Source: a virus. Taken from it: 44,209 nucleotides of DNA. A model generated the notes under the pieces. The model saw only the letters and a list, made by a program, of their open reading frames with translations, had not been told where the DNA came from and did not search any database. The translations under genes were made by a program, and so were the position numbers. The stretch is from the UHGV virus genome UHGV-0377591; one strand, given 5' to 3'. Shown piece by piece: positions 282 through 42,012 of the stretch. Position 1 is the stretch's first letter. Every line of letters begins with the position of its first letter.

Positions 282-311
282 GTCAATTACTCCTTAGTCA
301 GTTGATATGTG

Positions 312-325
312 AATAGTACCATATT
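312..325 (-). promoter_or_regulatory. Imperfect operator palindrome AATAG-TACC-ATATT upstream of the HTH gene
   Basis: Minus-strand reading gives TACTATTCACAT about 30 nt upstream of the HTH start, the same core as the class II promoters below; no good -35. Confidence 0.4.
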
Positions 326-345
326 AATTATTTTAGAAAAGCCCA

Positions 346-1219: not shown

Positions 1220-2457
1220 TTCTAAAAGAACGTGGCGGCAATAACGATGTGCACGCCTTACTGTCACCGTCAGGCGCTAAAAAGTGGCTAAGCTGCGCCG
1301 CATCGCTGGCCTGTGAAAAAGATATTCCTAACACATCTGGTAAAGACGCCGTTACAGGGACCGCGTGTCACACCATAGCCGAGGTCCATTTAAATCAGTA
1401 CATCAAAGGCACTGCGTTGCCGTTAGAGCGTGAAGTCGGTGCTTACGTGCTGGATGAAGGCAAAGGCCAGATTAAGGCGTTAATCAGCCCTATGAAAGGT
1501 GCGGTACTTATTACGGCGGACATGATTGAGCAGGTGCGTAAGTACACCGACTACTGCAAACCGATTATCGACGTAGCGACTTACGCCAAGCTGGAAATGC
1601 GCGTCAATCTTACAGAGGTGCTGCATCCGGGATATGAAGGCGTTGAGACGTTCGGGACCGCTGACCTTGTTGCCGTGCAGGAACTGGCGAACACCGACGA
1701 GCACATGCTCATTATTGGAGACCTTAAAACAGGACGGCACCGTGTTGAAGCGAAAGAAAACAAGCAGCTTATGCTTTATGCTCTCGGTGTTTATCGCCGA
1801 CTCAAGAGACGATATAACATCACAGTTGTTCGTCTGGTCATCTTCCAGCCGTACGCTGGGGGCGCGTCGGAGTGGGACATCTCGGTTGAAGGTCTGGAAC
1901 TGTTCGCTAAGTTCGCACGGAAACGTGCACTGTTAGCATTAGATGCGTATTTCCGTGGTAAAAAGAACCTTAAAGCGTCGGACTTCAAGCCGTCAGTAGA
2001 TGGTTGCCAGTGGTGTCGGTTCTCTGAACAGTGCGCCGCGCGTACAAAAACCGTTAACTCTGTACTGGCGGAAGAACTGGAAGATGACTTTGCGCCGGAG
2101 CTTACGCCGGAGCAACTCGTAACCGAGTATGAGAAGTTGCCGTTGTTGCGTCAACACATCGACAAGGTTGAGAAAGCTATGGCTGCCGCGTTGCATTCCG
2201 GTAAGAAAGTTCCGGGGTACAAGCTGGTCGAGGGTCGTCCTGGTAATCGTGCGTGGAAAGATGCAGAGAAAGTAGCAGAACTCTACGGCGACAAGCTGAC
2301 TAAAGAAGTGCTCATGACGCCGACAGAAGCTGTTAAAGTTATCCCGGAAGAAGAACTGAAAGACTTCATTACCCGTAAGCCGGGAGCGCCATGCGTCGCC
2401 GCGGCAGACGATAAACGGCCTGAGTGGGACAGTGTAACAGAGGAGGATTTAGAATGA
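1216..2457 (+). CDS. PD-(D/E)xK Cas4/RecB-like exonuclease with Fe-S cysteine cluster (DUF2800-type)
   Basis: Start moved to ATG 1216 (GGAG upstream). Motifs IGDLKTGR and QLMLYALG; C-terminal CQWCRFSEQC plus N-terminal Cys; ends VTEEDLE. Confidence 0.75.
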   Translation: MILKERGGNNDVHALLSPSGAKKWLSCAASLACEKDIPNTSGKDAVTGTACHTIAEVHLNQYIKGTALPLEREVGAYVLDEGKGQIKALISPMKGAVLITADMIEQVRKYTDYCKPIIDVATYAKLEMRVNLTEVLHPGYEGVETFGTADLVAVQELANTDEHMLIIGDLKTGRHRVEAKENKQLMLYALGVYRRLKRRYNITVVRLVIFQPYAGGASEWDISVEGLELFAKFARKRALLALDAYFRGKKNLKASDFKPSVDGCQWCRFSEQCAARTKTVNSVLAEELEDDFAPELTPEQLVTEYEKLPLLRQHIDKVEKAMAAALHSGKKVPGYKLVEGRPGNRAWKDAEKVAELYGDKLTKEVLMTPTEAVKVIPEEELKDFITRKPGAPCVAAADDKRPEWDSVTEEDLE

Positions 2458-2954
2458 GTTTAGTCCGGGAGCGTTTCATTTATGACAACGGGAAACTAAT
2501 CTATCGCCACAATACAAAAAGAATGTTAGCGGGTCATGAGGCAGGAAGCCTCCACCATTCAGGGTATGTGCAGATATACATTAATCGTAAGTCCTACCAA
2601 AGAAGCCGTTTAATATGGGAGTACCACAACGGCCCTATACCTGAAGGGTTTGAGGTGGACCATATAAATGCGATAAGAAATGATGACAGGATAGAGAATC
2701 TCCAGTTAATCGCCCATAGTGATAATGTGGCTAAAGGTGGTATTCAAACCGGAAGAAGTCATAACAAAAGTGGGTACACTGGCGTGTTTTGGCGCAAAAG
2801 CCACGGTAAATGGCAAGCTGGAATTACCGTAAACGGGCAATATCGTTACCTTGGACTATTCGAAACTCCTGAACATGCTAACGTGGCAAGAAAGAATTTT
2901 GAAAGTAATTTGCTAAAAGAAGTTGACTACCGAATAGCGAACTATTATAGTTAA
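2454..2954 (+). CDS. HNH homing endonuclease with AP2-like DNA-binding domain
   Basis: Start moved to ATG 2454 (AGGAGG upstream, ATGA overlap). HNH core EVDHIN…NDDRIENLQL; AP2-like GYTGVFWRKSHGKWQAGITVNGQYRYLGLFETPEHA. Confidence 0.8.
   Translation: MSLVRERFIYDNGKLIYRHNTKRMLAGHEAGSLHHSGYVQIYINRKSYQRSRLIWEYHNGPIPEGFEVDHINAIRNDDRIENLQLIAHSDNVAKGGIQTGRSHNKSGYTGVFWRKSHGKWQAGITVNGQYRYLGLFETPEHANVARKNFESNLLKEVDYRIANYYS
2923..2951 (+). promoter_or_regulatory. Early sigma70-like promoter (class I) embedded in the 3' end of the HNH gene
   Basis: TTGACT (2923-2928), 17-bp spacer, TATAGT (2946-2951); AATAG-CGAA-CTATT at 2933-2946. Confidence 0.55.
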
Positions 2955-2980
2955 ATCACTGGCCGGGCAGTTCCCGGAGT

Positions 2981-3015
2981 AAACTTAAAATCTAAACTTA
3001 AAATCTAAACTTAAT
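2981..3015 (+). repeat. 13-bp tandem direct repeat AAACTTAAAATCT, about 2.7 copies
   Basis: Two exact units at 2981-2993 and 2994-3006 plus a partial third; sits between the promoter and the SSB-like gene. Confidence 0.8.
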
Positions 3016-3027
3016 GAGGGCTGAACT

Positions 3028-3654
3028 GTGGGACTGAAATTAAATCTGCGTAAAGTAAACACTGCATGGGTTAACGTATTCGAACGCGAAAAAGACCGTG
3101 AAAACGATGATGGCTCAATCACTAAAGGCCAGTACAGCGCAACGATTATCCTGCCGTCTGACCATGCTCAAATCGATGCGCTCTACGACACCGTTTACGC
3201 GGTAGTTGAAGAAGCATTGGGCGCCGCCGCTGCCGAGAAGTGGATGAAATCCAACTACGGCGAAGGTAAGCACATGGATAAATGCGCGATTAAAGACATT
3301 GCCGAGCGCGACAATCCGTTTGAAGACTTCCCGGAAGGATTCTACTTCAAAGCGAAGGCGCAGAAACAGCCACTAATTGTAACCTCTAAAAAAGGTGAGA
3401 CACAGGTAGAGCAGGACTTCAATGCAGACGGCGAGCAGATTGAAGGTGAACAGGTTTACAGCGGCTGTGTTGCCAACGTAAGCGTTGAAATCTGGTTCAG
3501 CCAGAAATACAAAGTTCTCGGTGTTAACCTGCTGGCGATTAAATACGTCGGTGAAGGTAAGGCGTTCGGGGGTTCTAAAGTAGCCGCCAGCGTCGACGAC
3601 CTGGAAGACGACGAAGAGGGTGAAGCACCGCGCCGCGAACGTCGCCGCCGCTAA
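3028..3654 (+). CDS. Putative single-strand DNA-binding protein (DUF2815-like), 208 aa
   Basis: ORF track (GTG start after GAGGG). Sits between the Cas4-like exonuclease and the DNA polymerase; acidic C-terminal region DDLEDDEEGE. Function assigned from context and memory only. Confidence 0.5.
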   Translation: MGLKLNLRKVNTAWVNVFEREKDRENDDGSITKGQYSATIILPSDHAQIDALYDTVYAVVEEALGAAAAEKWMKSNYGEGKHMDKCAIKDIAERDNPFEDFPEGFYFKAKAQKQPLIVTSKKGETQVEQDFNADGEQIEGEQVYSGCVANVSVEIWFSQKYKVLGVNLLAIKYVGEGKAFGGSKVAASVDDLEDDEEGEAPRRERRRR

Positions 3655-18813: not shown

Positions 18814-18842
18814 TTGCGCACCCCAACATAATAGGATACTAT
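18814..18842 (+). promoter_or_regulatory. Class II promoter with operator palindrome overlapping the -10
   Basis: TTGCGC (18814-18819), 17-bp spacer, TACTAT (18837-18842); AATAG-GATA-CTATT at 18830-18843. Confidence 0.5.
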
Positions 18843-18883
18843 TCACTTACACCAACAATGTTAACTCAAACAGGATCTACACC

Positions 18884-23290: not shown

Positions 23291-23646
23291 TTTCTCACCT
23301 GAATAAAGTATGCCACGACATCATCATTAACCATCTTCTTCTCTATGGCTACAACAGACCATTGCGCGTCGCCGAATTGCACCTTGTCTTCCATCTTAGG
23401 AGCGACACTGCAATCGGCTTTAACAATCATGTCGCCCGCCTGAATTGTAGTACCGTTCACCAGTCCTGCGTTAACAGGAACCGGAACGGCCTTCAACGGC
23501 AACACTTCATCGTCAGACCAGACGTACTCGCCGAGAACTTCATCCCACACTTTCGAGCCAGCACGAACCAGAGATACCGTGCTACCGAATTTGGTTAGCA
23601 GGCGTGTACCCACGCCTTGCATACGTTTACTGAAAGCAGTACCCAT
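23287..23646 (-). CDS. Neck protein, hypothetical
   Basis: Start moved to internal ATG 23646, which overlaps the upstream stop as TAATG. Confidence 0.45.
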   Translation of the reverse strand: MGTAFSKRMQGVGTRLLTKFGSTVSLVRAGSKVWDEVLGEYVWSDDEVLPLKAVPVPVNAGLVNGTTIQAGDMIVKADCSVAPKMEDKVQFGDAQWSVVAIEKKMVNDDVVAYFIQVRK

Positions 23647-24262: not shown

Positions 24263-24775
24263 TTAACCCCGGTACACGTTAAATGAGAAGCCATTGTTAA
24301 GACCACCACACAGTAACGGGCGCAAGGCGTCATCGGCTGCGGTAATTGCAGTAGTAGCTCCGCTGTTGCCATTGTTGAAGTAGGTCACTGTTACCGCACC
24401 CTCGACACGCTCAGTCTGCACGGCGCGGCCGTCTGAGTTAGCCCGGACTTCGGTGCCCTCGCCATATGTAGCGGCAGCGATTACCTGCGCAAGAATCACC
24501 TGTTTCGGAATGGCGTTGTTGGCCACCGCGAACCCGTTTAACGTAACGCCGGTGCGGGGGTATGCAAGAGACTGTTCGGCGGATACTCGACGACCGCACA
24601 TCTGCGGTTCTGCAAGCCCTACATAAGTAGCACCGTTGCGTAAGGCCACCTCTGCTGCGGTATCGTCTTCCGGCAGCTCAAGGCCATAATTAGCCGCTAA
24701 CGCGCGGGCGTCAGCCAGACTAATGTAACTGTCGGCATTTGGGACGATCACCCCAGTTTCCACGATTAGCGGCAT
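24263..24775 (-). CDS. Head completion / head-tail connector protein (putative)
   Basis: ORF track; position after the capsid genes. Confidence 0.45.
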   Translation of the reverse strand: MPLIVETGVIVPNADSYISLADARALAANYGLELPEDDTAAEVALRNGATYVGLAEPQMCGRRVSAEQSLAYPRTGVTLNGFAVANNAIPKQVILAQVIAAATYGEGTEVRANSDGRAVQTERVEGAVTVTYFNNGNSGATTAITAADDALRPLLCGGLNNGFSFNVYRG

Positions 24776-24778
24776 AAA

Positions 24779-24958
24779 TTATTCCTCTGACTTACGGCGA
24801 CGACGCTTAGTACCACCGCCGTTGTTGTGCCCTTCTTCGTTGTCCGGTTGAGTCGCAACCAGTTCATCCGCTTCTACAACACCGCGAACGGGCATCACCT
24901 GACCGTCAATAATATCAACGTGGGTGTACTTTTCGCGTATTACATAATTATCTGCCAT
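24779..24958 (-). CDS. Small protein with basic C-terminus, 59 aa (not in the ORF track)
   Basis: Manual translation MADNYVIREKYTHVDIIDGQVMPVRGVVEADELVATQPDNEEGHNNGGGTKRRRRKSEE. Confidence 0.4.
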   Translation of the reverse strand: MADNYVIREKYTHVDIIDGQVMPVRGVVEADELVATQPDNEEGHNNGGGTKRRRRKSEE

Positions 24959-26833: not shown

Positions 26834-27535
26834 TTATTTCCTCAGGGCTTTAAGTTGCCGTTCAAATTCGGCAGGGTTCGATTTATACAGAGCTAAACGC
26901 TCCGCTTCACTCATGTCTTTAAACGCTGGTGCGGCCCCGCCGCCTTTGCCACCGGAAGCCCCGCCGCCGGAAGCTGCATTTGCTTTAATCAAATGCGAAA
27001 ACGCTTTGTGTTCACGCAGGTATTTGCGGAACTGTTCCGGGTCAGTCGTGATTACATTACCGTCTGCGCCCACAAACTTAGTAACCACATCATCACCTTC
27101 GAACTCAGTCTTAACGAACGGAGCAAGAATGTCTACTGCTTCCGGGGTAATAAAGTCACCTGCGAAAGAGCCTAACACCGCTTTACGTTCGCTGCCGAGG
27201 ATGCGCTCAGCCATTTTGGTGATGCGACCATCTTTCTCGGCTAACACCGGGTCATACTGGCTACGAATCGTCTTTTCGAACTCGTCCATCTTACCAGCGG
27301 CTTTTAGCGCCTCCTGGTGCGCGCGCTGACGTTCCTCTTCGGCCTCTTTTGCTTTACGGGCGGCTTCTTTCTTCTCCGCCAGCAATGCTTCCTGATTGGC
27401 CTTAAGTCCGGCAACTTCTTTCTCAATCATCGCCTGAACTTCTTCAGCGGTGAACATTTTTGGAGCGTCGCCACCGCCAGATTTATCTTCTGCCCCAGCT
27501 TCTTCCTGGAACGGATAGTGTAAAAAACGATTCAT
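26834..27535 (-). CDS. Scaffolding protein
   Basis: Start moved to ATG 27535 (the track start is TTG). Lys/Glu/Ala-rich coiled-coil EEVQAMIEKEVAGLKANQEALLAEKKEAARKAKEAEEERQRAHQEALKAAG. Confidence 0.7.
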   Translation of the reverse strand: MNRFLHYPFQEEAGAEDKSGGGDAPKMFTAEEVQAMIEKEVAGLKANQEALLAEKKEAARKAKEAEEERQRAHQEALKAAGKMDEFEKTIRSQYDPVLAEKDGRITKMAERILGSERKAVLGSFAGDFITPEAVDILAPFVKTEFEGDDVVTKFVGADGNVITTDPEQFRKYLREHKAFSHLIKANAASGGGASGGKGGGAAPAFKDMSEAERLALYKSNPAEFERQLKALRK

Positions 27536-27617
27536 AGTCAGTATGTCCCCTGGACGTTGGAATCCGGGCCTCCCGGATTTACATGTCAAGAATAAATTAT
27601 TCCAACATACAAGGCAA

Positions 27618-27881
27618 CTATTCCAGAATATTCCTCACGTAATCCTGCAACATGAACACTTTCAGTCTCAGTTGCCGTACACATTCGGCGTTCTGAACAT
27701 CGATAGCTAAATCCTCGTCAGCGTCGATACTTGGCGGTGCCAGTTTGCACGGCGGCTGCATCATCGTCGTATCCGGGGATGGAATTGGCGTTGGCAACGG
27801 CGTGGGACTTGAGCAGGACGCGAGCATCGTCGAAAGTGCACACGCTGCGGCCAGGCGTTTTAATGTACTTAACGACTTCAC
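27618..27881 (-). CDS. Outer-membrane spanin (Rz1-like lipoprotein), 87 aa
   Basis: GTG start with GAGG ribosome-binding site; lipobox LASC with Cys at position 23; proline-rich mature region SSPTPLPTPIPSPDTTMMQPP; starts inside the i-spanin gene in another frame. Confidence 0.7.
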   Translation of the reverse strand: MKSLSTLKRLAAACALSTMLASCSSPTPLPTPIPSPDTTMMQPPCKLAPPSIDADEDLAIDVQNAECVRQLRLKVFMLQDYVRNILE

Positions 27882-28113
27882 GGGTAATCACCTCTGATTT
27901 CGTCTTGCCTTCGTTGTCAGCGGCGGCGGCCTTAGATTCGTCCTGCTGCTGCCGTTGTGTTTTCTTCGCTAACTCAGCCTGTGCTTTCTGCTGTTGCTGC
28001 GAAACGAGATTCGCCCGGCCTTCGTTCCAGCCGCTGCGATACTGGTAGATTCCGTAGCCGTATGTCAGGAGAATGAAACATGCTCCAGCTACGACAGTTG
28101 CGTTAAGATTCAT
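27718..28113 (-). CDS. Inner-membrane spanin (Rz-like), 131 aa
   Basis: N-terminal transmembrane segment ATVVAGACFILLTYGYGIY followed by Gln-rich helical region QQQQKAQAELAKKTQRQQQ; strong AGGGGA ribosome-binding site. Confidence 0.7.
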   Translation of the reverse strand: MNLNATVVAGACFILLTYGYGIYQYRSGWNEGRANLVSQQQQKAQAELAKKTQRQQQDESKAAAADNEGKTKSEVITREVVKYIKTPGRSVCTFDDARVLLKSHAVANANSIPGYDDDAAAVQTGTAKYRR

Positions 28114-28363
28114 GTTTCCCCTTTCTCGATAAGTAAAGCCCCGCTTTAAGGCGGGGCGCTAGTCCTTATCATTTAAACATAGAAACGGCGTAATCTCAGT
28201 AAACCAGTTACTTTTTACACAAGCAATAGAGTATGGCCCTTCCGAACGCGTCAGCGTAACTACACTCAGGACTTACGTCCCGCTCCGTTACCTGCCCGCG
28301 CCGCGGTCGCTTGCTCATACTTCACAAGCTCAGGTGGAGCTTATCATATTTTCAGTGAAAAGT

Positions 28364-28379
28364 CAACTATTCGAATAGT
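28364..28379. promoter_or_regulatory. Perfect 16-bp palindrome AACTATTCGAATAGTT (everted operator half-sites)
   Basis: CTATT-CG-AATAG core; 55 bp upstream of the class II promoter. Confidence 0.5.
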
Positions 28380-28432
28380 TTATTCCAACGTTTACAATTG
28401 AGTGGAATAACTGGAATACGTAAATAAATAGT

Positions 28433-28461
28433 TTGCGCGCACCAACATAATAGGGTACTAT
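28433..28461 (+). promoter_or_regulatory. Class II promoter with operator palindrome overlapping the -10
   Basis: TTGCGC (28433-28438), 17-bp spacer, TACTAT (28456-28461); AATAG-GGTA-CTATT at 28449-28462. Confidence 0.5.
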
Positions 28462-28488
28462 TCAGTTAACTTAAACAGGAGATGAGAA

Positions 28489-29010
28489 ATGGTTACTACA
28501 GTAATTACTTTCCCTGCGTATGTAGGGGCGAAAATATGCAGGGCTAAAAATGATGTTCGCTACTATTTGAACGCTTTTTACATAGACCCTGAAGGATTGA
28601 TAGTGTCTACGGACGGTCATAGATTGTTCTGCGACAATGTGAAGACCAACGTTGAGAAAGGGACTCTCATAGACATCAAAGGGAGAGAGCCTTCTAAATT
28701 TAACTACGCGGAGGTAAACCACGACAACGGCAGTGTATCTTTCTATAACGATAATCGTGCGCTTATATGTACACTTCCGGTAGATGTTGTAGAAGGAAAC
28801 TTTCCTGACTGGAGACGCGTGGCGCACATCACACCGGGTGTTGTCGATAGTATAGGGTTCACCCTGCGTTATTTGGCAGACGCGTACAAGATTTCTAAGG
28901 CATACAAAAATGAAATTGCTCGTTTCGATTTCCAGGACCAAACCAGAGGATGCAAAATACAATTTTCAAACACGGCCTTTATGGTGTTAATGCCTGCGCG
29001 ATTTAAATAA
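28489..29010 (+). CDS. Hypothetical protein, 173 aa, encoded on the opposite strand inside the head-gene module
   Basis: ORF track; own promoter and AGGAGATGAGAA ribosome-binding site; own terminator. Confidence 0.65.
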   Translation: MVTTVITFPAYVGAKICRAKNDVRYYLNAFYIDPEGLIVSTDGHRLFCDNVKTNVEKGTLIDIKGREPSKFNYAEVNHDNGSVSFYNDNRALICTLPVDVVEGNFPDWRRVAHITPGVVDSIGFTLRYLADAYKISKAYKNEIARFDFQDQTRGCKIQFSNTAFMVLMPARFK

Positions 29011-29015
29011 AACTA

Positions 29016-29040
29016 AGGCCCCATTATGGGGCCTTTTATC
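29016..29040. terminator. Bidirectional rho-independent terminator
   Basis: AGGCCCC-ATTAT-GGGGCCT-TTTTAT. Confidence 0.75.
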
Positions 29041-29497
29041 ATCCTGGTTTAGAGACCTTCGCCGCTTTGCTTACGGCCTCCGCACCATCGGCATCAGTAA
29101 CTTTAACGAAGTATTCACCAGCCGCATTAACAGTCAGAGACAGAGCCTCTTCCGGGGCGTTCACCACTTCCTTCCCGTCTTTGTACCAGGTCAGTACATA
29201 CGGCGCTTTACCCGCCTTAACTTCGACAGTGATGGTGGCGCTACCGTCGACCAGCTCGGTGTCTTTCGGTTGCACAGAGAAATACACATCGCCAGCATCT
29301 GCCAGATACGGAATCTCATAAAGCATACCTGCCGCTGGAAGTGCAATACCGGTTTTATCTGCAAACGGCATATCATCTACCGGCGTACCCAGTACACTTT
29401 CGTCCTCAATAAATACCACGTTCTCACCAGAGCCAGACACGCGGGCGTACTGGACTACGCGTCGCGACGGTACATCAGTTACTTTGAAAAAGCACAT
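29039..29497 (-). CDS. Ig-like domain virion protein
   Basis: Motif APYVLTWYKDGKEV, paralogous in style to the 24995..25339 protein. Confidence 0.55.
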   Translation of the reverse strand: MCFFKVTDVPSRRVVQYARVSGSGENVVFIEDESVLGTPVDDMPFADKTGIALPAAGMLYEIPYLADAGDVYFSVQPKDTELVDGSATITVEVKAGKAPYVLTWYKDGKEVVNAPEEALSLTVNAAGEYFVKVTDADGAEAVSKAAKVSKPG

Positions 29498-31307: not shown

Positions 31308-32789
31308 TTACTGCTGAGCGGTGTCTTGTTGCTGCGCCGACTGCGGAATCTCTCCTGCTACCCGAGCAACAGCACCTAACGGCAGCGGTGTATCCTCGAT
31401 AGCGTTCTGAATGTCTTCATCAGTCCAGTCGGTTACGCCAGCCTTACGCAGCGCGGCGTAATAAGCAGTGGCGGGTAACAAGCCAGCGTTAATATCCGCC
31501 ATCCACTGCGCGCGGTCCTGAGCGGTCATAGGTTGCAGGAAGAACTCCATATTCAGTTTGAACTCAATCTCTGTGCCTTCACGCAACCCTAGCATCGCAG
31601 CTACCCAGCGCAGCGCATCGGTATACGCCATGCTTACGTTACGTGCGATTGTCGCCATAACAGACGTATCAGCGCCACGTTGCAGACGGGCCGATTCAGC
31701 GGTGATTTGCTGAGTCGGGGTGATAAGCTGCGCGCCAATCTGGATGGCTTGGTTCTCTTTATCCAGCATGTTCTGCTTAGCGAGGTTGTTCTCTCCGGCC
31801 TGAACCAGAAACGCATTGCCGCCGTAACCGATGTTATGGCCCGAACGTGAACCCATTCGCACGCCGTGGGGGTTGGCCTCTTTCCACTGCTCCATGCTCA
31901 TATTCTCACCCGGGGCGATGAACAAAGTAGGCTGGCCTACTACGAAGCTGGATTCCTCATTGTCCGCGCTGTTGCGGAAATGCCCGATATTAAGTTCAGC
32001 CAACGGCAGCAAAGGCGCATCGTCTACAGTGGCGTCGTTGTTGCTTGCTCCGATGAACGTGAACGGGATTTTGCCGCGTAACTGTTCGCCAAGTTCCGGG
32101 AATATTTCGATTACTTCATCCTGGGCACCACCTCCGGCATCGAAGCGATAGATTCGCTGGCGATAGCGGCTGTCAATCAGGTCAAGGACACGGTATTGCT
32201 CACCGAACTTGGTTTCAAACTCTGCGCCAGGTTCTGAGTATTCCCACACCTCACGCAGCACGACCATTGTCACACGGTTAACCGAACCGATGCGGGTCAG
32301 TCGCCAGTTGATGATGTTCTCCGCAGTGTAGAACGCGATTACCGGGTTTAATAATCCTGCGTTCTGCTCTGCTGCCGTTGCCGCTGCTGTCTCCGGCGCG
32401 TCCACCAGCAGCCCGCCACGGCCAACCGAGTCAATCTCCATCAGCGTGTCCTGCGCGTGCTGCCACAGCCCAACACCGGAACCGTCGGCATTGTGCAACA
32501 GGTACTCCAGTTCAGGTGGAATAATTTGCTCGGGGTCTTTGCGCATGACACTGCCGACCATCCCGGCCAGGGTACGTTTAGTGAAGTTGTAGCAGATAGC
32601 GCCGTTCTCATATTCTTCCTGTCGCTGGGCTGCGTAGGTCGGGTCGGGTTCGTTCTTACCGACGTTGCGCAGATAGCTAATAAGGTCACCTTCCAGCGCA
32701 TGACGTACCTTCTGCCATTTATCGAAGTGGTGCAGCCATTCCCGGTGTTTTGTCTTAACACCTTGATTCTGACCGTTCATAGTTAACAT
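31308..32789 (-). CDS. Portal protein, 493 aa
   Basis: Size and position immediately after the large terminase gene. Confidence 0.85.
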   Translation of the reverse strand: MLTMNGQNQGVKTKHREWLHHFDKWQKVRHALEGDLISYLRNVGKNEPDPTYAAQRQEEYENGAICYNFTKRTLAGMVGSVMRKDPEQIIPPELEYLLHNADGSGVGLWQHAQDTLMEIDSVGRGGLLVDAPETAAATAAEQNAGLLNPVIAFYTAENIINWRLTRIGSVNRVTMVVLREVWEYSEPGAEFETKFGEQYRVLDLIDSRYRQRIYRFDAGGGAQDEVIEIFPELGEQLRGKIPFTFIGASNNDATVDDAPLLPLAELNIGHFRNSADNEESSFVVGQPTLFIAPGENMSMEQWKEANPHGVRMGSRSGHNIGYGGNAFLVQAGENNLAKQNMLDKENQAIQIGAQLITPTQQITAESARLQRGADTSVMATIARNVSMAYTDALRWVAAMLGLREGTEIEFKLNMEFFLQPMTAQDRAQWMADINAGLLPATAYYAALRKAGVTDWTDEDIQNAIEDTPLPLGAVARVAGEIPQSAQQQDTAQQ

Positions 32790-36867: not shown

Positions 36868-37365
36868 TTAACCTTTCACCGCTCGCCCGATAGCCTCCGC
36901 CTCCTGCCACGGCTTACCATCGAACAGCGCCAGACGACCAGCGGTACGGCGCCGGAGACCAAGCAGTTTCCTGCCTTTCTGGTAGACAAACTGACCCATA
37001 ATCCGACGGCACTCCGCTACATTTCCCAGGCGCACCGCGTCATCGAAGTCGGCTAGCTGGTTATCTTTCTCTATAACCCCTGTACCCACGTTGAAACAAA
37101 GGTCACAAATTGCGTCGAACTGCGCTTGATTGAATATCGGGTGCACTAATTCGTCGGCTTTCCTGACGGCCCTAGCCATATCGCGATTAAGTAGCAGGAG
37201 GCCTTGTCCGGGAGTGATGGTCTTGCCCGGTGTTACGTCCGGTCCGTAGTGGCCGTAGCCTATCGTCAGGTACTTCTCGTTTGACGTAGCACGATACGCA
37301 GTTCCGCGGAATCCCTCGAACGCGGCGGTGAAATGCAGTCCATTATCTGAAATGTTTCGAGACAC
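36868..37365 (-). CDS. Endolysin, GH24 (T4-lysozyme-type) muramidase
   Basis: Start moved to GTG 37365 (GGAGGA upstream). Catalytic signature FEGFRGTAYRATSNEKYLTIGYGH. Confidence 0.8.
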   Translation of the reverse strand: MSRNISDNGLHFTAAFEGFRGTAYRATSNEKYLTIGYGHYGPDVTPGKTITPGQGLLLLNRDMARAVRKADELVHPIFNQAQFDAICDLCFNVGTGVIEKDNQLADFDDAVRLGNVAECRRIMGQFVYQKGRKLLGLRRRTAGRLALFDGKPWQEAEAIGRAVKG

Positions 37366-37615
37366 GCTTATGTCCTCCGTATGACAGCCACGCCTGTCGA
37401 ATCTGACGCAGCGCAACTAATGTGATTAACGTCTCTGGCAGCGTTGGTGACATGCTGCCCTGTAACAGGTGGATACATCCGGCGGCGCAGACGATAGCAG
37501 TCAGGATATAGAGCACCCGGCCGAACAGCCCGTCGTCAACGCTGGGGTGATACACATTAAACAGCGATGTACCCCCGATTGCCAGCATACCGCCGAACCA
37601 GAATAACTCATTCAT
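37343..37615 (-). CDS. Two-transmembrane lysis-cassette protein (antiholin or second holin)
   Basis: Start moved to ATG 37615 (ATGA overlap with the holin stop); transmembrane segments LFWFGGMLAIGGTSLF and VLYILTAIVCAAGCIHLL. Confidence 0.45.
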   Translation of the reverse strand: MNELFWFGGMLAIGGTSLFNVYHPSVDDGLFGRVLYILTAIVCAAGCIHLLQGSMSPTLPETLITLVALRQIRQAWLSYGGHKRVSKHFR

Positions 37616-37916
37616 CCGGGCCCCCTCGACGTGCGATGTATTCTCCGGCAACGATACCGGAGAGACGGGAATAAATAGGCATCCAGAGAACGGCGATGAT
37701 AAAGCCCAGGCCAGCTATCTCGCGCTCCCCGGTAATACCGAACCATTGGGCTGCGAGAGGTGCACCAAATACGGCGCAGGTGAAGCCAGTTACGATAAAG
37801 AAGAAGCCGTCGATAGGGCCGGAAATAACGGACTTATGTTGTCGTAGTCCGATGACCCCTCCGGCGAGTGCGGCAGCCAGAAGCCAGCCTGTCACTGTTT
37901 CAGTAAATTTATCCAA
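37608..37916 (-). CDS. Holin (three predicted transmembrane segments)
   Basis: Hydrophobic segments WLLAAALAGGVIGL, FFFIVTGFTCAVFGAPLAA and LGFIIAVLWMPIY; first gene of the lysis cassette. Confidence 0.6.
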   Translation of the reverse strand: MDKFTETVTGWLLAAALAGGVIGLRQHKSVISGPIDGFFFIVTGFTCAVFGAPLAAQWFGITGEREIAGLGFIIAVLWMPIYSRLSGIVAGEYIARRGGPDE

Positions 37917-39620: not shown

Positions 39621-39763
39621 CAGCTACCTCCAGTTCGCCGTAAACATGCTCGTTGTCGCCGCTGCATACACTGCAAACTCGCAACTCAGCATAAAGCTGT
39701 TCCAGTTTCTCAACCGTCAGATACTTATACATCTTCCGTCTCTCCTCTCGTTTGTGTAAATGA

Positions 39764-39792
39764 ATAGTAGCCTATTCTATCTTAATGTGCAA
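39764..39792 (-). promoter_or_regulatory. Class II promoter (leftward) with operator palindrome
   Basis: Minus strand TTGCAC, 17-bp spacer, TACTAT; plus-strand AATAG-TAGC-CTATT at 39763-39776. Confidence 0.5.
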
Positions 39793-40322: not shown

Positions 40323-40514
40323 TCACTTCTGATTCGCTATAAACAACACACCAGCTTTCCACGCCCGCCACGCGAGACGCGTCTTAACGTTCAGGTACTC
40401 TTTCTTAGAGCCCTTGTTAACAGGCAGACCCTCGACGACGGCCCACCGTTCAAATGCTTCTCTCATAACTAATAACTCCGATAACTTTAGATTTCTCGCG
40501 CCTGGCGCAACCAT
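40323..40514 (-). CDS. Hypothetical protein
   Basis: ORF track; start uncertain. Confidence 0.4.
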   Translation of the reverse strand: MVAPGARNLKLSELLVMREAFERWAVVEGLPVNKGSKKEYLNVKTRLAWRAWKAGVLFIANQK

Positions 40515-40705
40515 GTTCTATGTAGTAGCGCGCCTGCTTGACGCTTTCGCAACGCGTCAGAGTAACCCACCAGAAAAAAGCCAACGCGAACCTGCACGGC
40601 AGGTGTAATTCGTTTCTCACCGAAGGCGGTAACCCACTCTTCGCTAACTATGCGGTATTTACTTAACACGGCAACCTCCCTGGGAGTCGTCGGCACGAGC
40701 ATCAT
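40487..40705 (-). CDS. Hypothetical protein
   Basis: ORF track; overlaps both neighbours, start uncertain. Confidence 0.4.
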   Translation of the reverse strand: MMLVPTTPREVAVLSKYRIVSEEWVTAFGEKRITPAVQVRVGFFLVGYSDALRKRQAGALLHRTWLRQAREI

Positions 40706-40868
40706 GATTCGATGCCGTTCGTATTGCTCGTAAACTATTTAACATTCTCTCACTAGTAGATGTAATAACCGTTATACCATCCACCAGGTGGATCTCGTAA
40801 CGTTCGGCTACGAAGTATATTTCCTCGAATTCATGATGTTTCAGTTCTTCAAATAATTCTTCCATCAC
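40659..40868 (-). CDS. Hypothetical acidic protein
   Basis: ORF track; start uncertain. Confidence 0.4.
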   Translation of the reverse strand: MMEELFEELKHHEFEEIYFVAERYEIHLVDGITVITSTSERMLNSLRAIRTASNHDARADDSQGGCRVK

Positions 40869-41056
40869 TTCGCCCCTTTGAATTTAAAATTGTTGCCGAT
40901 GAGTTCTAAATCTCCCCCAGGCATGCGTATTACCGAGTTTACTCCTCCCACATTTTGCACAATCACGATGTACTCCCCTGGAAATAAATCAGATTTTAAT
41001 TCAATTATGCCGTGGCTACCGTCGGCACATTTCACCAACTGACCCTCCTTAAACAT
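40865..41056 (-). CDS. Hypothetical protein, 63 aa; first gene of the leftward accessory operon
   Basis: ORF track; class II promoter about 35 nt upstream. Confidence 0.5.
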   Translation of the reverse strand: MFKEGQLVKCADGSHGIIELKSDLFPGEYIVIVQNVGGVNSVIRMPGGDLELIGNNFKFKGAK

Positions 41057-41090
41057 AACCCTAACTCCTCTGTCTCGTTTCGATAAGTGA

Positions 41091-41119
41091 ATAGTATCCT
41101 ATTATATTGGGGTGTGCAA
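41091..41119 (-). promoter_or_regulatory. Class II promoter (leftward) with operator palindrome
   Basis: Minus strand TTGCAC, 17-bp spacer, TACTAT; plus-strand AATAG-TATC-CTATT at 41090-41103; extra half-site GAATAGTT at 41122-41129. Confidence 0.55.
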
Positions 41120-41492
41120 GAGAATAGTTACGTTGCCGTTGTGATTCTTTAGGGAAGGTTGTGCCTTTATTCTTATTACTTGGTAACTAAAGGGCAGGCC
41201 TTAAGCCTGCCCAATAATCGTTACATTTTTACGGTTGCGAATCTACGGCACATTAAGAAAATCAGATACTTAAGATATATGCTGCCGATGAGAATAGAGC
41301 TTGCCCAAGGCAACCGGAGATACTAAGAAAGGAAAGTTACTATAATTCTCATGTTCAGTAAACTGCCGCCTAACACTTCGCGTTGGGCGCTCGTTTTCGG
41401 CGGGTTTTACAAGGTGAACAGGAATCAAAGTAACTAAGATATAGAAGCACCTTAAACGAAGATTTTCATAATGTCAATAGTTGAGATTATGT

Positions 41493-41521
41493 TTGATTTC
41501 CCATTATTCGCAATGTATACT
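41493..41521 (+). promoter_or_regulatory. Sigma70-like promoter for the rightward regulator/primase operon
   Basis: TTGATT (41493-41498), 17-bp spacer, TATACT (41516-41521); no operator palindrome. Confidence 0.5.
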
Positions 41522-41553
41522 TGGTTTCGTTAACTGATGATGAGGGGTTGAGA

Positions 41554-41724
41554 ATGACACAGAATGAAGTAGCTGAGCGTATTGGGGTTACTCGCCGCAC
41601 GCTTAATAACTGGTTAAAGAGTGGGAAGTTCCCGGATTGTTGTATCCGCATTATGGGCCGCCGGCAGCCGGGTACGTTTGACCCGGAGAAAGTGGAAGCG
41701 TGGATTAAGGAGAACGTGAAATGA
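41554..41724 (+). CDS. Small HTH DNA-binding protein (AlpA/excisionase-like fold), 56 aa
   Basis: Start moved to ATG 41554 (GAGGGG upstream). MTQNEVAERIGVTRRTLNNWLKSGKFP. Confidence 0.6.
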   Translation: MTQNEVAERIGVTRRTLNNWLKSGKFPDCCIRIMGRRQPGTFDPEKVEAWIKENVK

Positions 41725-41954
41725 CCGAATTTCAGTCGCGCGTATTTACGGCAGTCGTTTCCTTAACACGTAAAAAAGGGTCGTGCAGCGTTATCGACTT
41801 GCGCCGCAGTTATTTTACGTACTATAGTTCTGCCATTATTGAAGGGTCGTTGAAAGTGCTGGTTAAATCCGGTGTCGTGAAAAACGTTGGCGGGAAATAT
41901 AGCGCTGTTGCTGAAGTTCGCGGAATGATCGCTACTTTAGAAGACCTGGAATAA
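41721..41954 (+). CDS. Hypothetical protein, 77 aa
   Basis: ORF track; ATGA coupling. Confidence 0.55.
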   Translation: MTEFQSRVFTAVVSLTRKKGSCSVIDLRRSYFTYYSSAIIEGSLKVLVKSGVVKNVGGKYSAVAEVRGMIATLEDLE

Positions 41955-42012
41955 AAGAAAGCCCCGACGCGGTGAACGCCGAGGCCAAATTACTTGCTGA
42001 AGGAAATACAAC

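What the first reader, a model, noticed from the sequence alone, without database searches (positions are those of the whole stretch)
27618..28113. Spanin pair sits inside the head-gene module, about 9 kb from holin and endolysin
The 27718..28113 product has an N-terminal transmembrane segment and a Gln-rich helical region like an inner-membrane spanin. The 27618..27881 ORF starts inside it in another frame and encodes a lipobox (LASC) plus a proline-rich region with MMQPP, like lambda Rz1. Holin, a second membrane protein and endolysin sit together at 36868..37916 without spanins. The spanin pair lies between the Ig-like/insert genes and the scaffold gene, bracketed by a hairpin at 27561-27579 and a 375-bp noncoding stretch, which suggests independent acquisition or relocation.
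Basis: partly seen in the sequence, partly recalled or inferred. Interest (0 to 1): 0.6.

Follow-up and report, generated by a model that had tools for sequence, protein, structure and literature searches.

The report
Known unlinked spanin pair, Jersey family
The two overlapping genes are a real outer-membrane-disrupting "spanin" pair lying among the head genes, far from the other lysis genes. This layout is shared by the whole phage subfamily and is already published, so the finding is correct but ordinary.

Summary
The window is a Kagunavirus (Guernseyvirinae) genome, 97.6% identical to Escherichia phage Schulenburg across the 2-kb stretch compared (27000-29000). On the minus strand, 27718..28113 encodes a 131-aa i-spanin. 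27618..27881 (GTG start, strong Shine-Dalgarno site) encodes an 87-aa o-spanin lipoprotein with lipobox LASC, Cys23 and Ser at +2. The genes overlap by 164 nt, the "overlapped" architecture.

Both products match PHROG spanin families (E = 2e-55 and 3e-18). They belong to the "Jersey" spanin family of Kongari et al. 2018. They do not belong to the lambda Rz/Rz1 families.

Of 88 related loci, 87 keep a start codon, signal peptide and lipobox in the o-spanin frame. The position between the Hoc-like and scaffold genes holds in every Guernseyvirinae-like locus examined and in Dhillonvirus. Homologues at about 40% identity in lambdoid phages sit directly behind holin and endolysin. Any relocation is therefore ancient. 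The Schulenberg genome announcement already reports the separation from holin and endolysin.

The most interesting result lies outside the finding. The "375-bp noncoding stretch" carries a conserved promoter, a roughly 200-nt structured RNA with strong covariation and no Rfam match, and a GC hairpin abutting the i-spanin ribosome-binding site.

The parts
27718..28113 (-). i-spanin gene (131 aa): N-terminal membrane anchor, Gln/Ala/Lys-rich periplasmic domain, invariant Cys92
   Evidence: ORF. phrog_2536 'Rz-like spanin' E = 2.1e-55 over the full length. Hydrophobic segment at residues 5-23. Cys92 and the ITxEVVKY motif are invariant across six divergent homologues. 524 phage records carry homologues.
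27618..27881 (-). o-spanin gene (87 aa, GTG start): SPII signal peptide, lipobox LASC with Cys23, Pro-rich linker, conserved C-terminal domain with Cys45 and Cys67
   Evidence: ORF. phrog_1267 E = 2.8e-18 (residues 8-86) and phrog_5672 E = 6.9e-29 (residues 41-87). It is the only lipoprotein-signal ORF in the window. Start, signal peptide and lipobox are kept in 87/88 related loci, and GTG and ATG interchange at the same codon. Kongari 2018 reports Cys45 and Cys67 as constant in the Jersey o-spanin family.
27887..27894 (-). Shine-Dalgarno site GAGGTGAT for the o-spanin, inside the i-spanin coding sequence
   Evidence: Sequence read directly. It lies 5 nt before the GTG. It is kept as GAGGTGAT or GAGGTAAT in Kagunavirus-type loci and as GGAGGC in Jerseyvirus-type loci.
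28114..28124 (-). Ribosome-binding region AAAGGGGAAAC of the i-spanin
   Evidence: It is conserved in Kagunavirus and Jerseyvirus alignments.
28138..28157 (-). GC-rich hairpin (GCCCCGC-CTTAAA-GCGGGGC) followed by TTTACTTAT: an intrinsic-terminator-like element 13 nt upstream of the i-spanin ribosome-binding site
   Evidence: Terminator scan. Compensatory changes CG<->GC<->UA and GC<->AU occur in the stem across relatives. The U-tract is poor in Jerseyvirus-type sequences.
28235..28331 (-). Core of a conserved structured leader RNA: a 5' hairpin plus a rod of three stacked helices capped by a GUAA loop
   Evidence: Covariance model R1 was built on Kagunavirus-type sequences and recovers Jerseyvirus-type ones. 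95.4% of cells are paired and 15 of 27 pairs changed on both sides, against 28-37% paired in slid controls. G-U pairs fix the strand as minus. No Rfam match.
28338..28366 (-). Promoter-like element TTGACT-N14-TGa-TAAGCT (extended -10) that would start the leader RNA near 28331
   Evidence: Read from the sequence. Conserved as TAGACT..TGtTACGCT in Jerseyvirus. The identical promoter precedes the second RNA copy in relatives. The strict sigma-70 scan did not flag it, so it is inferred.
28365..28380 (.). Perfect 16-bp palindrome AACTATTCGAATAGTT abutting the -35 element; candidate regulator-binding site
   Evidence: It overlaps a GGAATAAWYTATTC motif that occurs at 5 sites in the window (8 strand-matches against 0.9 expected).
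27589..27617 (-). Candidate promoter TTGCCT-N17-TATTCT between the o-spanin stop and the scaffold gene; it contains the palindrome GGAATAATTTATTC
   Evidence: Identical in Kagunavirus and Jerseyvirus loci. Coordinates. It is below the threshold of the sigma-70 scan, so it is inferred.
27562..27578 (-).
   Evidence: repeat I1. Compensatory changes give CACCGGG/CCCGGUG in Jerseyvirus and a U-G wobble in Bas70 and MC04. No U-tract follows, and the scan does not list it as a terminator.
37608..37916 (-). Holin or antiholin (partner lysis gene, 9 kb away)
   Evidence: phrog_2359 holin, E = 3.1e-28. Schulenburg annotates the homologue as antiholin/holin class II.
37343..37651 (-). Second holin or antiholin
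   Evidence: phrog_2508 holin, E = 2.6e-33. Schulenburg annotation.
36868..37416 (-). Endolysin (glycoside hydrolase, lysozyme family)
   Evidence: PF00959, E = 5.4e-24. phrog_7 endolysin.
28489..29010 (+). Opposite-strand insert gene (173 aa, sliding-clamp-like) in a variable slot upstream of the spanin leader
   Evidence: phrog_3007 E = 6.5e-36, and weak DNA pol III beta hits. Related phages carry a methyltransferase, a 67-aa ORF or nothing in this slot. Its own promoter-like motif ATAATAGGGTACTATTC is at 28447-28463.

Best explanation
These two genes encode a two-component spanin of the "Jersey" family in the overlapped gene arrangement.

How it works:
- The i-spanin is anchored in the inner membrane by its N-terminal segment and reaches into the periplasm.
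- The o-spanin is exported, lipidated on Cys23 and sorted to the outer membrane, because Ser rather than Asp sits at +2.
- The two C-terminal domains bind each other across the periplasm, probably stabilised by disulfides through the conserved cysteines.
- Once the distant holin and endolysin have removed the peptidoglycan, the complex fuses or breaks the outer membrane and completes lysis.

How it is expressed:
- The pair is expressed with the head genes. It forms the first two cistrons behind a conserved promoter, structured leader RNA and hairpin module.
- It lies just upstream of the scaffold and capsid genes, so it needs no linkage to holin and endolysin to be made late.

What is shown: the ORFs, their signals, family membership, conservation, synteny, and the RNA structure.

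What is inferred: membrane topology, complex formation, lysis function, the promoter assignments, and any role of the leader RNA.
For: - Profile matches to spanin families: E = 2e-55, 3e-18 and 7e-29.
- 91-97% identity to Kagunavirus proteins annotated as spanins, including K1ind2. K1G, K1H, K1ind1-3, SETP3, HK578 and SO-1 are listed members of the Jersey i- and o-spanin families.
- The o-spanin has an SD site, a start codon and a lipobox, and is the only lipoprotein-signal ORF in the genome.
- 87 of 88 loci, at 40-98% identity, keep the start, signal peptide and lipobox, and never have Asp at +2.
- Conserved cysteines: i-spanin C92, o-spanin C45 and C67.
- All 17 homologues at about 40% identity lie directly behind an endolysin homologue, with a holin homologue also detected upstream in most.
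- In phage MC04 an HNH endonuclease insertion in the overlap brings a replacement i-spanin C-terminus and a new lipoprotein signal, so both products stay intact.
- No other spanin candidate sits near the endolysin.
- The published statement for phage Schulenberg describes the same arrangement.
Against: - I found no experimental test of any Jersey-family spanin.
- The N-terminal hydrophobic segment scores slightly below the usual Kyte-Doolittle cut-off (1.54 against 1.6).
- Synonymous-site variation in the i-spanin frame is not lower in the overlap (0.193 against 0.197), so that test gives no independent support for dual coding.
- There are no Pfam or NCBIfam hits.
- There is no similarity to lambda Rz.
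Confidence: 0.9

Rival explanations
1. The pair is a recently acquired or relocated mobile cassette. On this view the hairpin at 27561-27579 and the 375-bp noncoding stretch are the junctions of the insertion.
For: - Short direct repeats flank the pair: 17 nt at 88% identity, 22 nt at 82% and 13 nt at 92%.
- The same spanin family sits in canonical cassettes in lambdoid phages.
- The neighbouring slot is a hot spot for opposite-strand inserts.
Against: - The position is identical in all 63 Guernseyvirinae-like viral contigs and in SETP3, S103 and Bas70. It is also between the head-morphogenesis and scaffold genes in Dhillonvirus.
- The 375-bp stretch is conserved in the 50 Kagunavirus- and Jerseyvirus-type loci that nhmmer detected, and it carries a promoter and a structured RNA.
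- The hairpin is conserved with compensatory changes.
- The flanking repeats are copies of GAATA/TATTC motifs that recur elsewhere in the genome, so they look like regulatory sites rather than target duplications.
Confidence: 0.05
2. The two products form a membrane protein and lipoprotein pair with another role. Candidates are superinfection exclusion (like lambda Bor, or Cor/Llp-type lipoproteins) or membrane-associated head assembly. On this view outer-membrane disruption is achieved some other way.
For: - The genes sit among head genes, not lysis genes.
- No experimental data exist for the family.
- Phage lipoproteins often act in exclusion (general knowledge).
Against: - Homologues sit immediately after an endolysin homologue in 17 lambdoid contigs.
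- The overlapped two-gene architecture, the cysteine pattern and the Pro-rich o-spanin linker are spanin hallmarks.
- The genome has no other spanin candidate.
- The pair survives an HNH insertion with both products repaired.
Confidence: 0.05
3. Only the 131-aa protein is real. On this view the 87-aa overlapping ORF is a chance open frame, or begins at the internal ATG as annotated in several GenBank records (48 aa, no signal peptide).
For: - Schulenburg, Bas70 and S103 annotate only a 47-48-aa ORF starting at MMQPPC, and PHROG 5672 is built on that short form.
- Synonymous rates show no extra constraint in the overlap.
Against: - The frame upstream of MMQPPC is open and begins with ATG or GTG at the same codon behind an SD site.
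- It encodes a signal peptide plus lipobox Cys in 87 of 88 loci, although the peptide sequence itself varies in about 45 ways.
- phrog_1267 matches residues 8-86.
- SETP3 annotates the 87-aa form.
- A 48-aa product without a signal sequence could not reach the periplasm (inference).
Confidence: 0.02

Closest known systems
Jersey i-spanin/o-spanin family (Kongari et al. 2018, PMC6139136), including the annotated pair of Escherichia phage Schulenberg (MK931438; PMC6763661)
   Same: - Same proteins: 97% (i-spanin) and 99% (o-spanin) identity to Schulenburg and 91% to K1ind2.
- Same overlapped architecture.
- Same Cys45 and Cys67 in the o-spanin.
- Same position between the Hoc-like and scaffold genes.
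- The Schulenberg paper states that the pair is genetically separate from holin/antiholin and endolysin.
   Different: There is no biological difference. The Schulenburg record starts the o-spanin at the internal ATG (48 aa, no lipoprotein signal).
Lambda Rz/Rz1
   Same: - Both consist of an inner-membrane subunit plus an outer-membrane lipoprotein encoded in a different frame of the same DNA.
- Both o-spanins are Pro-rich with an MQPP motif.
- Both have periplasmic cysteines.
   Different: - Rz shows no detectable sequence similarity, and Rz1 only E = 0.027.
- No Pfam hit.
- Lambda Rz1 is fully embedded and the pair follows S and R directly. Here the pair is overlapped and 8.8 kb away from the endolysin.
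T4 PseT.3/PseT.2 spanins
   Same: [quoted passage not shown]
   Different: T4 has the separated architecture, an unrelated sequence family and a different genomic neighbourhood. I made no direct sequence comparison here.
Klebsiella phage 2b LV-2017-type lambdoid spanins
   Same: They are homologous: about 40% (i-spanin) and 46% (o-spanin) identity, with the same overlapped arrangement and cysteines.
   Different: They are encoded in a canonical Q / holin / lysozyme / spanin / terminase order.
T5 versus Shivani spanins with a homing endonuclease between them (Kongari 2018)
   Same: The HNH-split pair seen here in Kagunavirus MC04 and fEg-Eco19 shows the same phenomenon. An endonuclease gene converts an overlapped pair into a separated one while keeping a lipoprotein signal.
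   Different: It involves a different spanin family and phage group. It does not occur in this window.
Lambda PR'-6S RNA-tR' late leader, and the HK022 put antitermination RNAs (from my own knowledge, not tested here)
   Same: - A constitutive-looking promoter is followed by a roughly 200-nt untranslated RNA and a terminator-like hairpin directly ahead of lysis and head genes.
- In some relatives a paralogous copy with the same promoter heads a second operon, as putL and putR do.
   Different: - There is no sequence or Rfam similarity.
- No Q- or N-like protein was found among the 10 ORFs scanned or in the Schulenburg annotation.
- The U-tract is poor in Jerseyvirus-type sequences.
- The function is entirely untested.

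Membership tests
Two-component spanin (functional class) | i-spanin with a single N-terminal transmembrane segment and a periplasmic C-terminal domain | tested here: met
   Hydrophobic segment at residues 5-23 (mean Kyte-Doolittle 1.54), and the rest of the protein is polar. An equivalent hydrophobic N-terminus is present in all six aligned homologues. This rests on a simple hydropathy test only.
Two-component spanin (functional class) | o-spanin with an SPII signal peptide, a lipobox Cys and no Asp at +2 (outer-membrane sorting) | tested here: met
   LASC with Cys23 and Ser at +2. It is the only such ORF in the window. The signal and lipobox are kept in 87/88 loci, with +2 as S, Q, A, G, V, K, Y or N and never D.
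Two-component spanin (functional class) | o-spanin gene embedded in, overlapping or adjacent to the i-spanin gene | tested here: met
   The o-spanin starts at 27881 inside the i-spanin gene (27718..28113) in another frame and ends at 27618. The overlap is 164 nt.
Two-component spanin (functional class) | Periplasmic cysteines available for intermolecular disulfides | tested here: met
   i-spanin C92 is invariant. o-spanin C45 and C67 are conserved in all eight lineages compared and are reported as constant in the family.
Two-component spanin (functional class) | Location in a lysis cassette next to holin and endolysin (usual but not obligatory) | tested here: not met
   The pair lies 8,755 bp from the endolysin gene, with packaging and head genes in between. 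T4 is a published precedent for unlinked spanins.
Two-component spanin (functional class) | Required for outer-membrane disruption; complements a lambda Rz/Rz1 defect | not testable with these tools
   This needs genetics. I found no published test for this family.
Jersey i-spanin/o-spanin family (Kongari 2018); PHROG 2536, 1267 and 5672 | Significant sequence similarity to family members over the periplasmic domains | tested here: met
   phrog_2536 E = 2.1e-55, phrog_1267 E = 2.8e-18, phrog_5672 E = 6.9e-29. tblastn gives 91% identity to K1ind2 and 63% to SETP3, both listed members.
Lambda Rz (PF03245) / Rz1 (PF06085) | Match to the Pfam models or to the lambda proteins | tested here: not met
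   No Pfam hit at E <= 0.1. BLASTP against lambda Rz gives no alignment, and against Rz1 E = 0.027 over 38 residues.
Unimolecular spanin (T1 gp11 type) | [quoted passage not shown] | tested here: not met
   The o-spanin C-terminus (LRLKVFMLQDYVRNILE) is not a membrane segment. The best 19-residue hydropathy window lies in the signal peptide. No other lipobox ORF exists in the window.
Any Rfam RNA family (for the leader RNA at 28130..28331) | Covariance-model match at or near the gathering score | tested here: not met
   The best local hits have E = 0.7-1.5 and fall far below gathering scores. The whole window gives no match at gathering thresholds.

The most novel reading that the evidence does not exclude
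The spanin pair may be the promoter-proximal cargo of an undescribed RNA-based control module. The module is a promoter, a conserved structured RNA of about 200 nt, and a hairpin.

In some Kagunaviruses a paralogous copy, with the same promoter, heads the operon that runs into holin and endolysin. The RNA would then act in cis, either as a put-like or attenuator-type antitermination element or as a processing element. It would coordinate expression of the physically split lysis genes and the head genes in phages that have no recognisable Q or N protein.

The RNA structure itself is well supported. The regulatory role is speculation.
Probability: 0.25. Interest if true: 0.55.

Novelty: already known. 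Interest (0 to 1): 0.17.

Why it matters
The spanin finding itself matters little. It confirms a published annotation and completes the lysis gene set of a phage group that is widely proposed for therapy.

Two practical points follow:
- **Annotation error.** Many GenBank records, and PHROG 5672, carry the o-spanin as a 47-48-aa fragment without its lipoprotein signal. The GTG/ATG start 39 codons upstream is the conserved one.
- **Origin of the arrangement.** The arrangement is ancestral to Guernseyvirinae and shared with Dhillonvirus. The same family sits in canonical cassettes in lambdoid phages. This is a clear example of a lysis gene pair detached from its cassette.

The conserved structured leader RNA in front of the pair is the only element here that could open a new question.

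Tried and rejected
- **Pfam and NCBIfam scans of both proteins.** There were no meaningful hits.
- **BLASTP against lambda Rz and Rz1.** Rz gave nothing and Rz1 was marginal.
- **Synonymous-site test for dual coding.** The overlap and non-overlap parts of the i-spanin frame gave 0.193 and 0.197, so there is no signal and the test is uninformative.
- **Strict sigma-70 scan.** It flagged none of the minus-strand promoters I propose. They rest on conservation and an extended -10 element.
- **Rfam.** A permissive scan of 27400-29100 and a gathering-threshold scan of the whole window found nothing. ARAGORN found no tRNA or tmRNA.
- **Covariance models R1 and R2 on other groups.** Both were run against the more divergent Guernseyvirinae-like loci, Dhillonvirus and the lambdoid loci; R2 was also run against lambda. 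The only hit was one weak R1 match in L070 (E = 0.19). The RNA family as modelled is therefore confined to Kagunavirus- and Jerseyvirus-type genomes.
- **R1 on window 40500-42500 with filters off.** It found no second copy in this genome.
- **The 10-mer TTATTCCAAC flanking the pair.** It is not significant on its own.
- **PHROG scan of 10 early-region ORFs.** It found no Q- or N-like antiterminator.
- **Literature.** Anany et al. 2015 is not held. A search for work on phage MB78 promoters returned nothing useful. The K1B4 transcriptome paper does not mention spanins.
- **The 36-aa ORF at 28208..28318.** It is annotated in relatives, but I rejected it as a gene because Jerseyvirus and second-copy sequences differ from it by indels that break the frame.
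Full report
**What the window is.** The stretch 27000-29000 is 97.6% identical to Escherichia phage Schulenburg (Guernseyvirinae, Kagunavirus). It also matches some 370 other phage records, mostly Escherichia and Salmonella siphophages. In most of the best-matching records the features under the match are annotated as i-spanin, o-spanin, "putative spanin" or "Rz-like spanin". All genes discussed below lie on the minus strand.

- 27718..28113 encodes 131 aa, with a hydrophobic N-terminal segment (residues about 5-23) and a Gln/Ala/Lys-rich remainder.
- 27618..27881 encodes 87 aa. It starts with GTG in another frame inside the first gene. The start lies 5 nt downstream of GAGGTGAT, an 8-nt match to the anti-Shine-Dalgarno complement.
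- Its product begins MKSLSTLKRLAAACALSTMLASC|SS. This has a basic N-region, a hydrophobic core, the lipobox LASC, and Ser at +2. A Pro-rich linker with MMQPPC follows.
- I ran a lipoprotein-signal pattern over every possible ORF start in all six frames of the 44-kb window. It returned this ORF and no other.
- The genes overlap by 164 nt, and the o-spanin gene continues 100 nt past the i-spanin stop. This is the "overlapped" class, not lambda's embedded class.
- Two holin-family genes and a PF00959 endolysin occupy 36868..37916. No lipoprotein ORF lies near them. They are 8,755 bp from the i-spanin start.

**Family membership.**
- PHROG profiles annotated as spanins match both proteins: phrog_2536 at 2e-55, phrog_1267 at 3e-18, and phrog_5672 at 7e-29.
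- Pfam and NCBIfam give nothing.
- Lambda Rz shows no BLASTP similarity. Lambda Rz1 shares only the MQPP region (E = 0.027).
- Kongari et al. 2018 defined a "Jersey" i-spanin family and a matching o-spanin family of 27 members, with overlapped architecture. Members include K1G, K1H, K1ind1-3, SETP3, HK578 and SO-1. They note that Cys45 and Cys67 of the o-spanin are constant.
- The window's o-spanin has cysteines at exactly positions 45 and 67. Its i-spanin is 91% identical to that of K1ind2.

**Is the overlapping ORF real?**
- I compared eight lineages at 36-99% o-spanin identity. Each has a start codon at the equivalent site (ATG or GTG), a signal peptide and a lipobox Cys.
- Across 88 loci, 87 keep these features, with about 45 different signal-peptide sequences and never Asp at +2.
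- One natural experiment supports this. In Kagunavirus vB_VIPECOMC04 (and, by annotation, fEg-Eco19) an HNH endonuclease gene sits in the middle of the overlap. The insert supplies a divergent replacement i-spanin C-terminus and a new lipoprotein signal (MRLPILLLVIGCYGC). The result is i-spanin / HNH / o-spanin with both products intact. Kongari et al. describe the same phenomenon for T5 versus Shivani.
- A synonymous-site test gave no signal (0.193 against 0.197). I read this as uninformative, because the overlapped part of the o-spanin is its weakly constrained signal peptide and linker.

**Is the position unusual or recent?**
- The order is Hoc-like gene, a variable opposite-strand slot, leader, i/o-spanin, scaffold, major capsid. 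I found it in Schulenburg, SETP3, S103 and Bas70 (SaI_NFG_5577 carries extra opposite-strand ORF calls overlapping the scaffold region), and in all 63 IMG/VR loci whose i-spanin is at least 45% identical.
- Dhillonvirus SO-1 and SECphi18 also carry the pair between the head-morphogenesis and scaffold genes; in SO-1 the same clamp-like opposite-strand gene lies next to it.
- All 17 loci with about 40% identity are lambdoid. There the pair directly follows an endolysin homologue, with a holin homologue also detected upstream in most.
- So one spanin family lives in two contexts. The head-module position is ancestral to a whole subfamily rather than a recent event in this genome.
[quoted passage not shown] T4 is a textbook precedent for unlinked spanins. 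The finding is therefore already known.

**The two "brackets".**
- *The hairpin (27562-27578).* It is conserved with compensatory changes: AUCCGGG/CCCGGAU becomes CACCGGG/CCCGGUG in Jerseyvirus, and a U-G wobble in Bas70 fits only the minus-strand RNA. No U-tract follows it, and the scan does not call it a terminator.
- *A candidate promoter.* The hairpin lies just downstream of a conserved promoter-like TTGCCT-N17-TATTCT (27589-27617). I infer it is a 5'-terminal hairpin of the scaffold/capsid mRNA.
- *The 375-bp stretch.* It is conserved in the 50 Kagunavirus- and Jerseyvirus-type loci detected by nhmmer. On the spanin strand it contains, in order:
  - a perfect 16-bp palindrome (28365-28380);
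  - a promoter-like TTGACT-N14-TGa-TAAGCT (28338-28366);
  - a GC-rich structured RNA core (28235-28331);
  - an AU-rich stretch;
  - a 7-bp all-GC hairpin with a TTTACTTAT tail (28138-28157), 13 nt before the i-spanin ribosome-binding site.

**The leader RNA.**
- I drew a structure from Kagunavirus-type sequences: a 5' hairpin, then three stacked helices ending in a GUAA loop. I built a covariance model from it.
- The model recovered the Jerseyvirus-type sequences (30-36 bits, E about 1e-4 to 5e-6).
- On 25 distinct sequences, 95.4% of cells pair and 15 of 27 pairs show changes on both sides. No shuffle out of 500 reached these values. Sliding the partners by 1-3 columns drops pairing to 28-37%.
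- One caveat applies. The alignment is fitted to the model, which favours the structure. However, the structure was derived from one group and tested on another.
- The terminal hairpin stem also covaries (CG, GC and UA at one pair).
- Rfam has no match.
- The 36-aa ORF annotated here in Schulenburg and Bas70 is not conserved in frame.
- Some relatives carry a second, diverged copy (62-103 bits) with the same promoter. It sits at the position equivalent to window 41150-41560, next to a divergent HTH gene. That is the head of the leftward operon that runs through small genes into holin and endolysin.
- This window has no second copy. At that site it has a non-homologous leader of the same build: TTGACA-N17-TAAGGT, about 270 nt, then a GC hairpin with TTTAGTT.

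**Mechanism.**
- *Shown:* the ORFs, their signals, family membership, conservation, synteny, and a covarying RNA structure in front of the pair.
- *Inferred from established spanin biology:* the i-spanin spans the inner membrane. The o-spanin is lipidated and sorted to the outer membrane. Their C-termini interact. The complex destroys the outer membrane once holin and endolysin have acted.
- *Inferred from anatomy:* every transcript that reaches the spanin genes must pass the GC hairpin. The pair is therefore co-transcribed with, and upstream of, the scaffold and capsid genes. That alone would give it late timing without linkage to holin and endolysin. A Kagunavirus transcriptome places lysozyme, MuF-like and capsid genes in the same "middle" class, which is compatible but not specific.
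- *Speculative:* the leader resembles lambda's PR'-6S-tR' arrangement or the HK022 put RNAs (my own knowledge). I found no Q- or N-like protein. The U-tract is poor in Jerseyvirus-type sequences, so the hairpin may be a stability or processing element rather than a terminator.

**Verdict.** Its start-codon call for the o-spanin is better than several database annotations. The arrangement is the published norm for this phage subfamily, so the finding is ordinary.

Noticed in passing
window 28130..28366 (-): A promoter-like element, a structured RNA of about 200 nt (core 28235..28331) and a GC hairpin sit directly upstream of the i-spanin. The RNA shows strong covariation (95% paired, 15/27 pairs with double changes), has no Rfam match, and is conserved in Kagunavirus- and Jerseyvirus-type genomes.
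   Followed up: partly
L151 12251..12349 (-), L112 11819..11917 (-), L168 6743..6839, L155, L108, L156, L163, L114; equivalent to window ~41150..41560 (-): Some relatives carry a second, diverged copy of the same RNA with the same promoter. It sits at the head of the leftward operon that leads into holin and endolysin. The window has no copy there. Instead it has a non-homologous leader of like build: TTGACA-N17-TAAGGT, about 270 nt, then the hairpin GGGCAGGC-TTAA-GGCCTGCCC-TTTAGTT.
   Followed up: partly
L009 (PQ423993) 2119..3183; also NC_073314 fEg-Eco19: An HNH homing endonuclease gene is inserted in the middle of the i/o-spanin overlap. The insert brings a replacement i-spanin C-terminus and a new o-spanin lipoprotein signal, which turns the overlapped pair into a separated one.
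   Followed up: partly
window 27618..27764 versus 27618..27881; L001 12619..12765, L007 3350..3496, L008 3119..3262: Schulenburg, S103 and Bas70 annotate the o-spanin as a 47-48-aa ORF starting at MMQPPC, without a signal peptide. PHROG 5672 (47 positions) is built on this truncated form. The conserved start is 39 codons upstream (GTG or ATG).
   Followed up: yes
window 311-327, 355-371, 39762-39778, 41089-41105 (-); 18828-18844, 28447-28463 (+): The promoter-like motif ATAATAGGRTACTATTC occurs six times, against 0.18 expected. One copy lies just upstream of the opposite-strand clamp-like gene and another just after the early leader. It has no properly spaced -35 element, so it may be a phage-specific promoter class.
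   Followed up: no
window 27589-27603, 28372-28386, 24771-24785, 23301-23314, 32518-32531: The palindromic motif GGAATAAWYTATTC (GAATA-N3-TATTC) occurs at five sites: 8 strand-matches against 0.9 expected. Two of the sites flank the spanin pair and overlap the proposed promoters, so it may be a regulator-binding site. This also explains the short direct repeats that bracket the pair.
   Followed up: no
window 28489..29010 (+) and equivalents in L002, L005, L007, L008: The slot between the Hoc-like gene and the spanin leader holds different opposite-strand genes in different phages. It carries a clamp-like protein here and in Schulenburg and SaI_NFG_5577; SO-1 carries the same gene in a different slot, between the spanins and the scaffold gene. 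S103 has an adenine methyltransferase, Bas70 a 67-aa ORF, and SETP3 nothing. PHROG labels the clamp-like protein 'RusA-like resolvase', while Pfam and TIGRFAM weakly suggest a DNA pol III beta domain, so the annotations disagree.
   Followed up: partly
L043 2501..3086: A contig with a Kagunavirus-type backbone (99% clamp-like gene, 96% scaffold) carries a divergent spanin allele: i-spanin 76% identical, and an o-spanin with the signal peptide typical of the more distant group. This suggests recombinational exchange of spanin alleles within the subfamily.
   Followed up: no
window 28208..28318 (-): A 36-aa ORF annotated as a hypothetical protein in Schulenburg and Bas70 lies inside the structured RNA. 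It is not kept in frame in Jerseyvirus-type or second-copy sequences, so it is probably not a gene.
   Followed up: yes
window 29015..29035: A perfect 10-bp-arm hairpin (AAGGCCCCAT/ATGGGGCCTT) lies between the Hoc-like gene and the convergent clamp-like gene. Schulenburg annotates it as a bidirectional terminator. It splits the structural genes into two transcription units.
   Followed up: no
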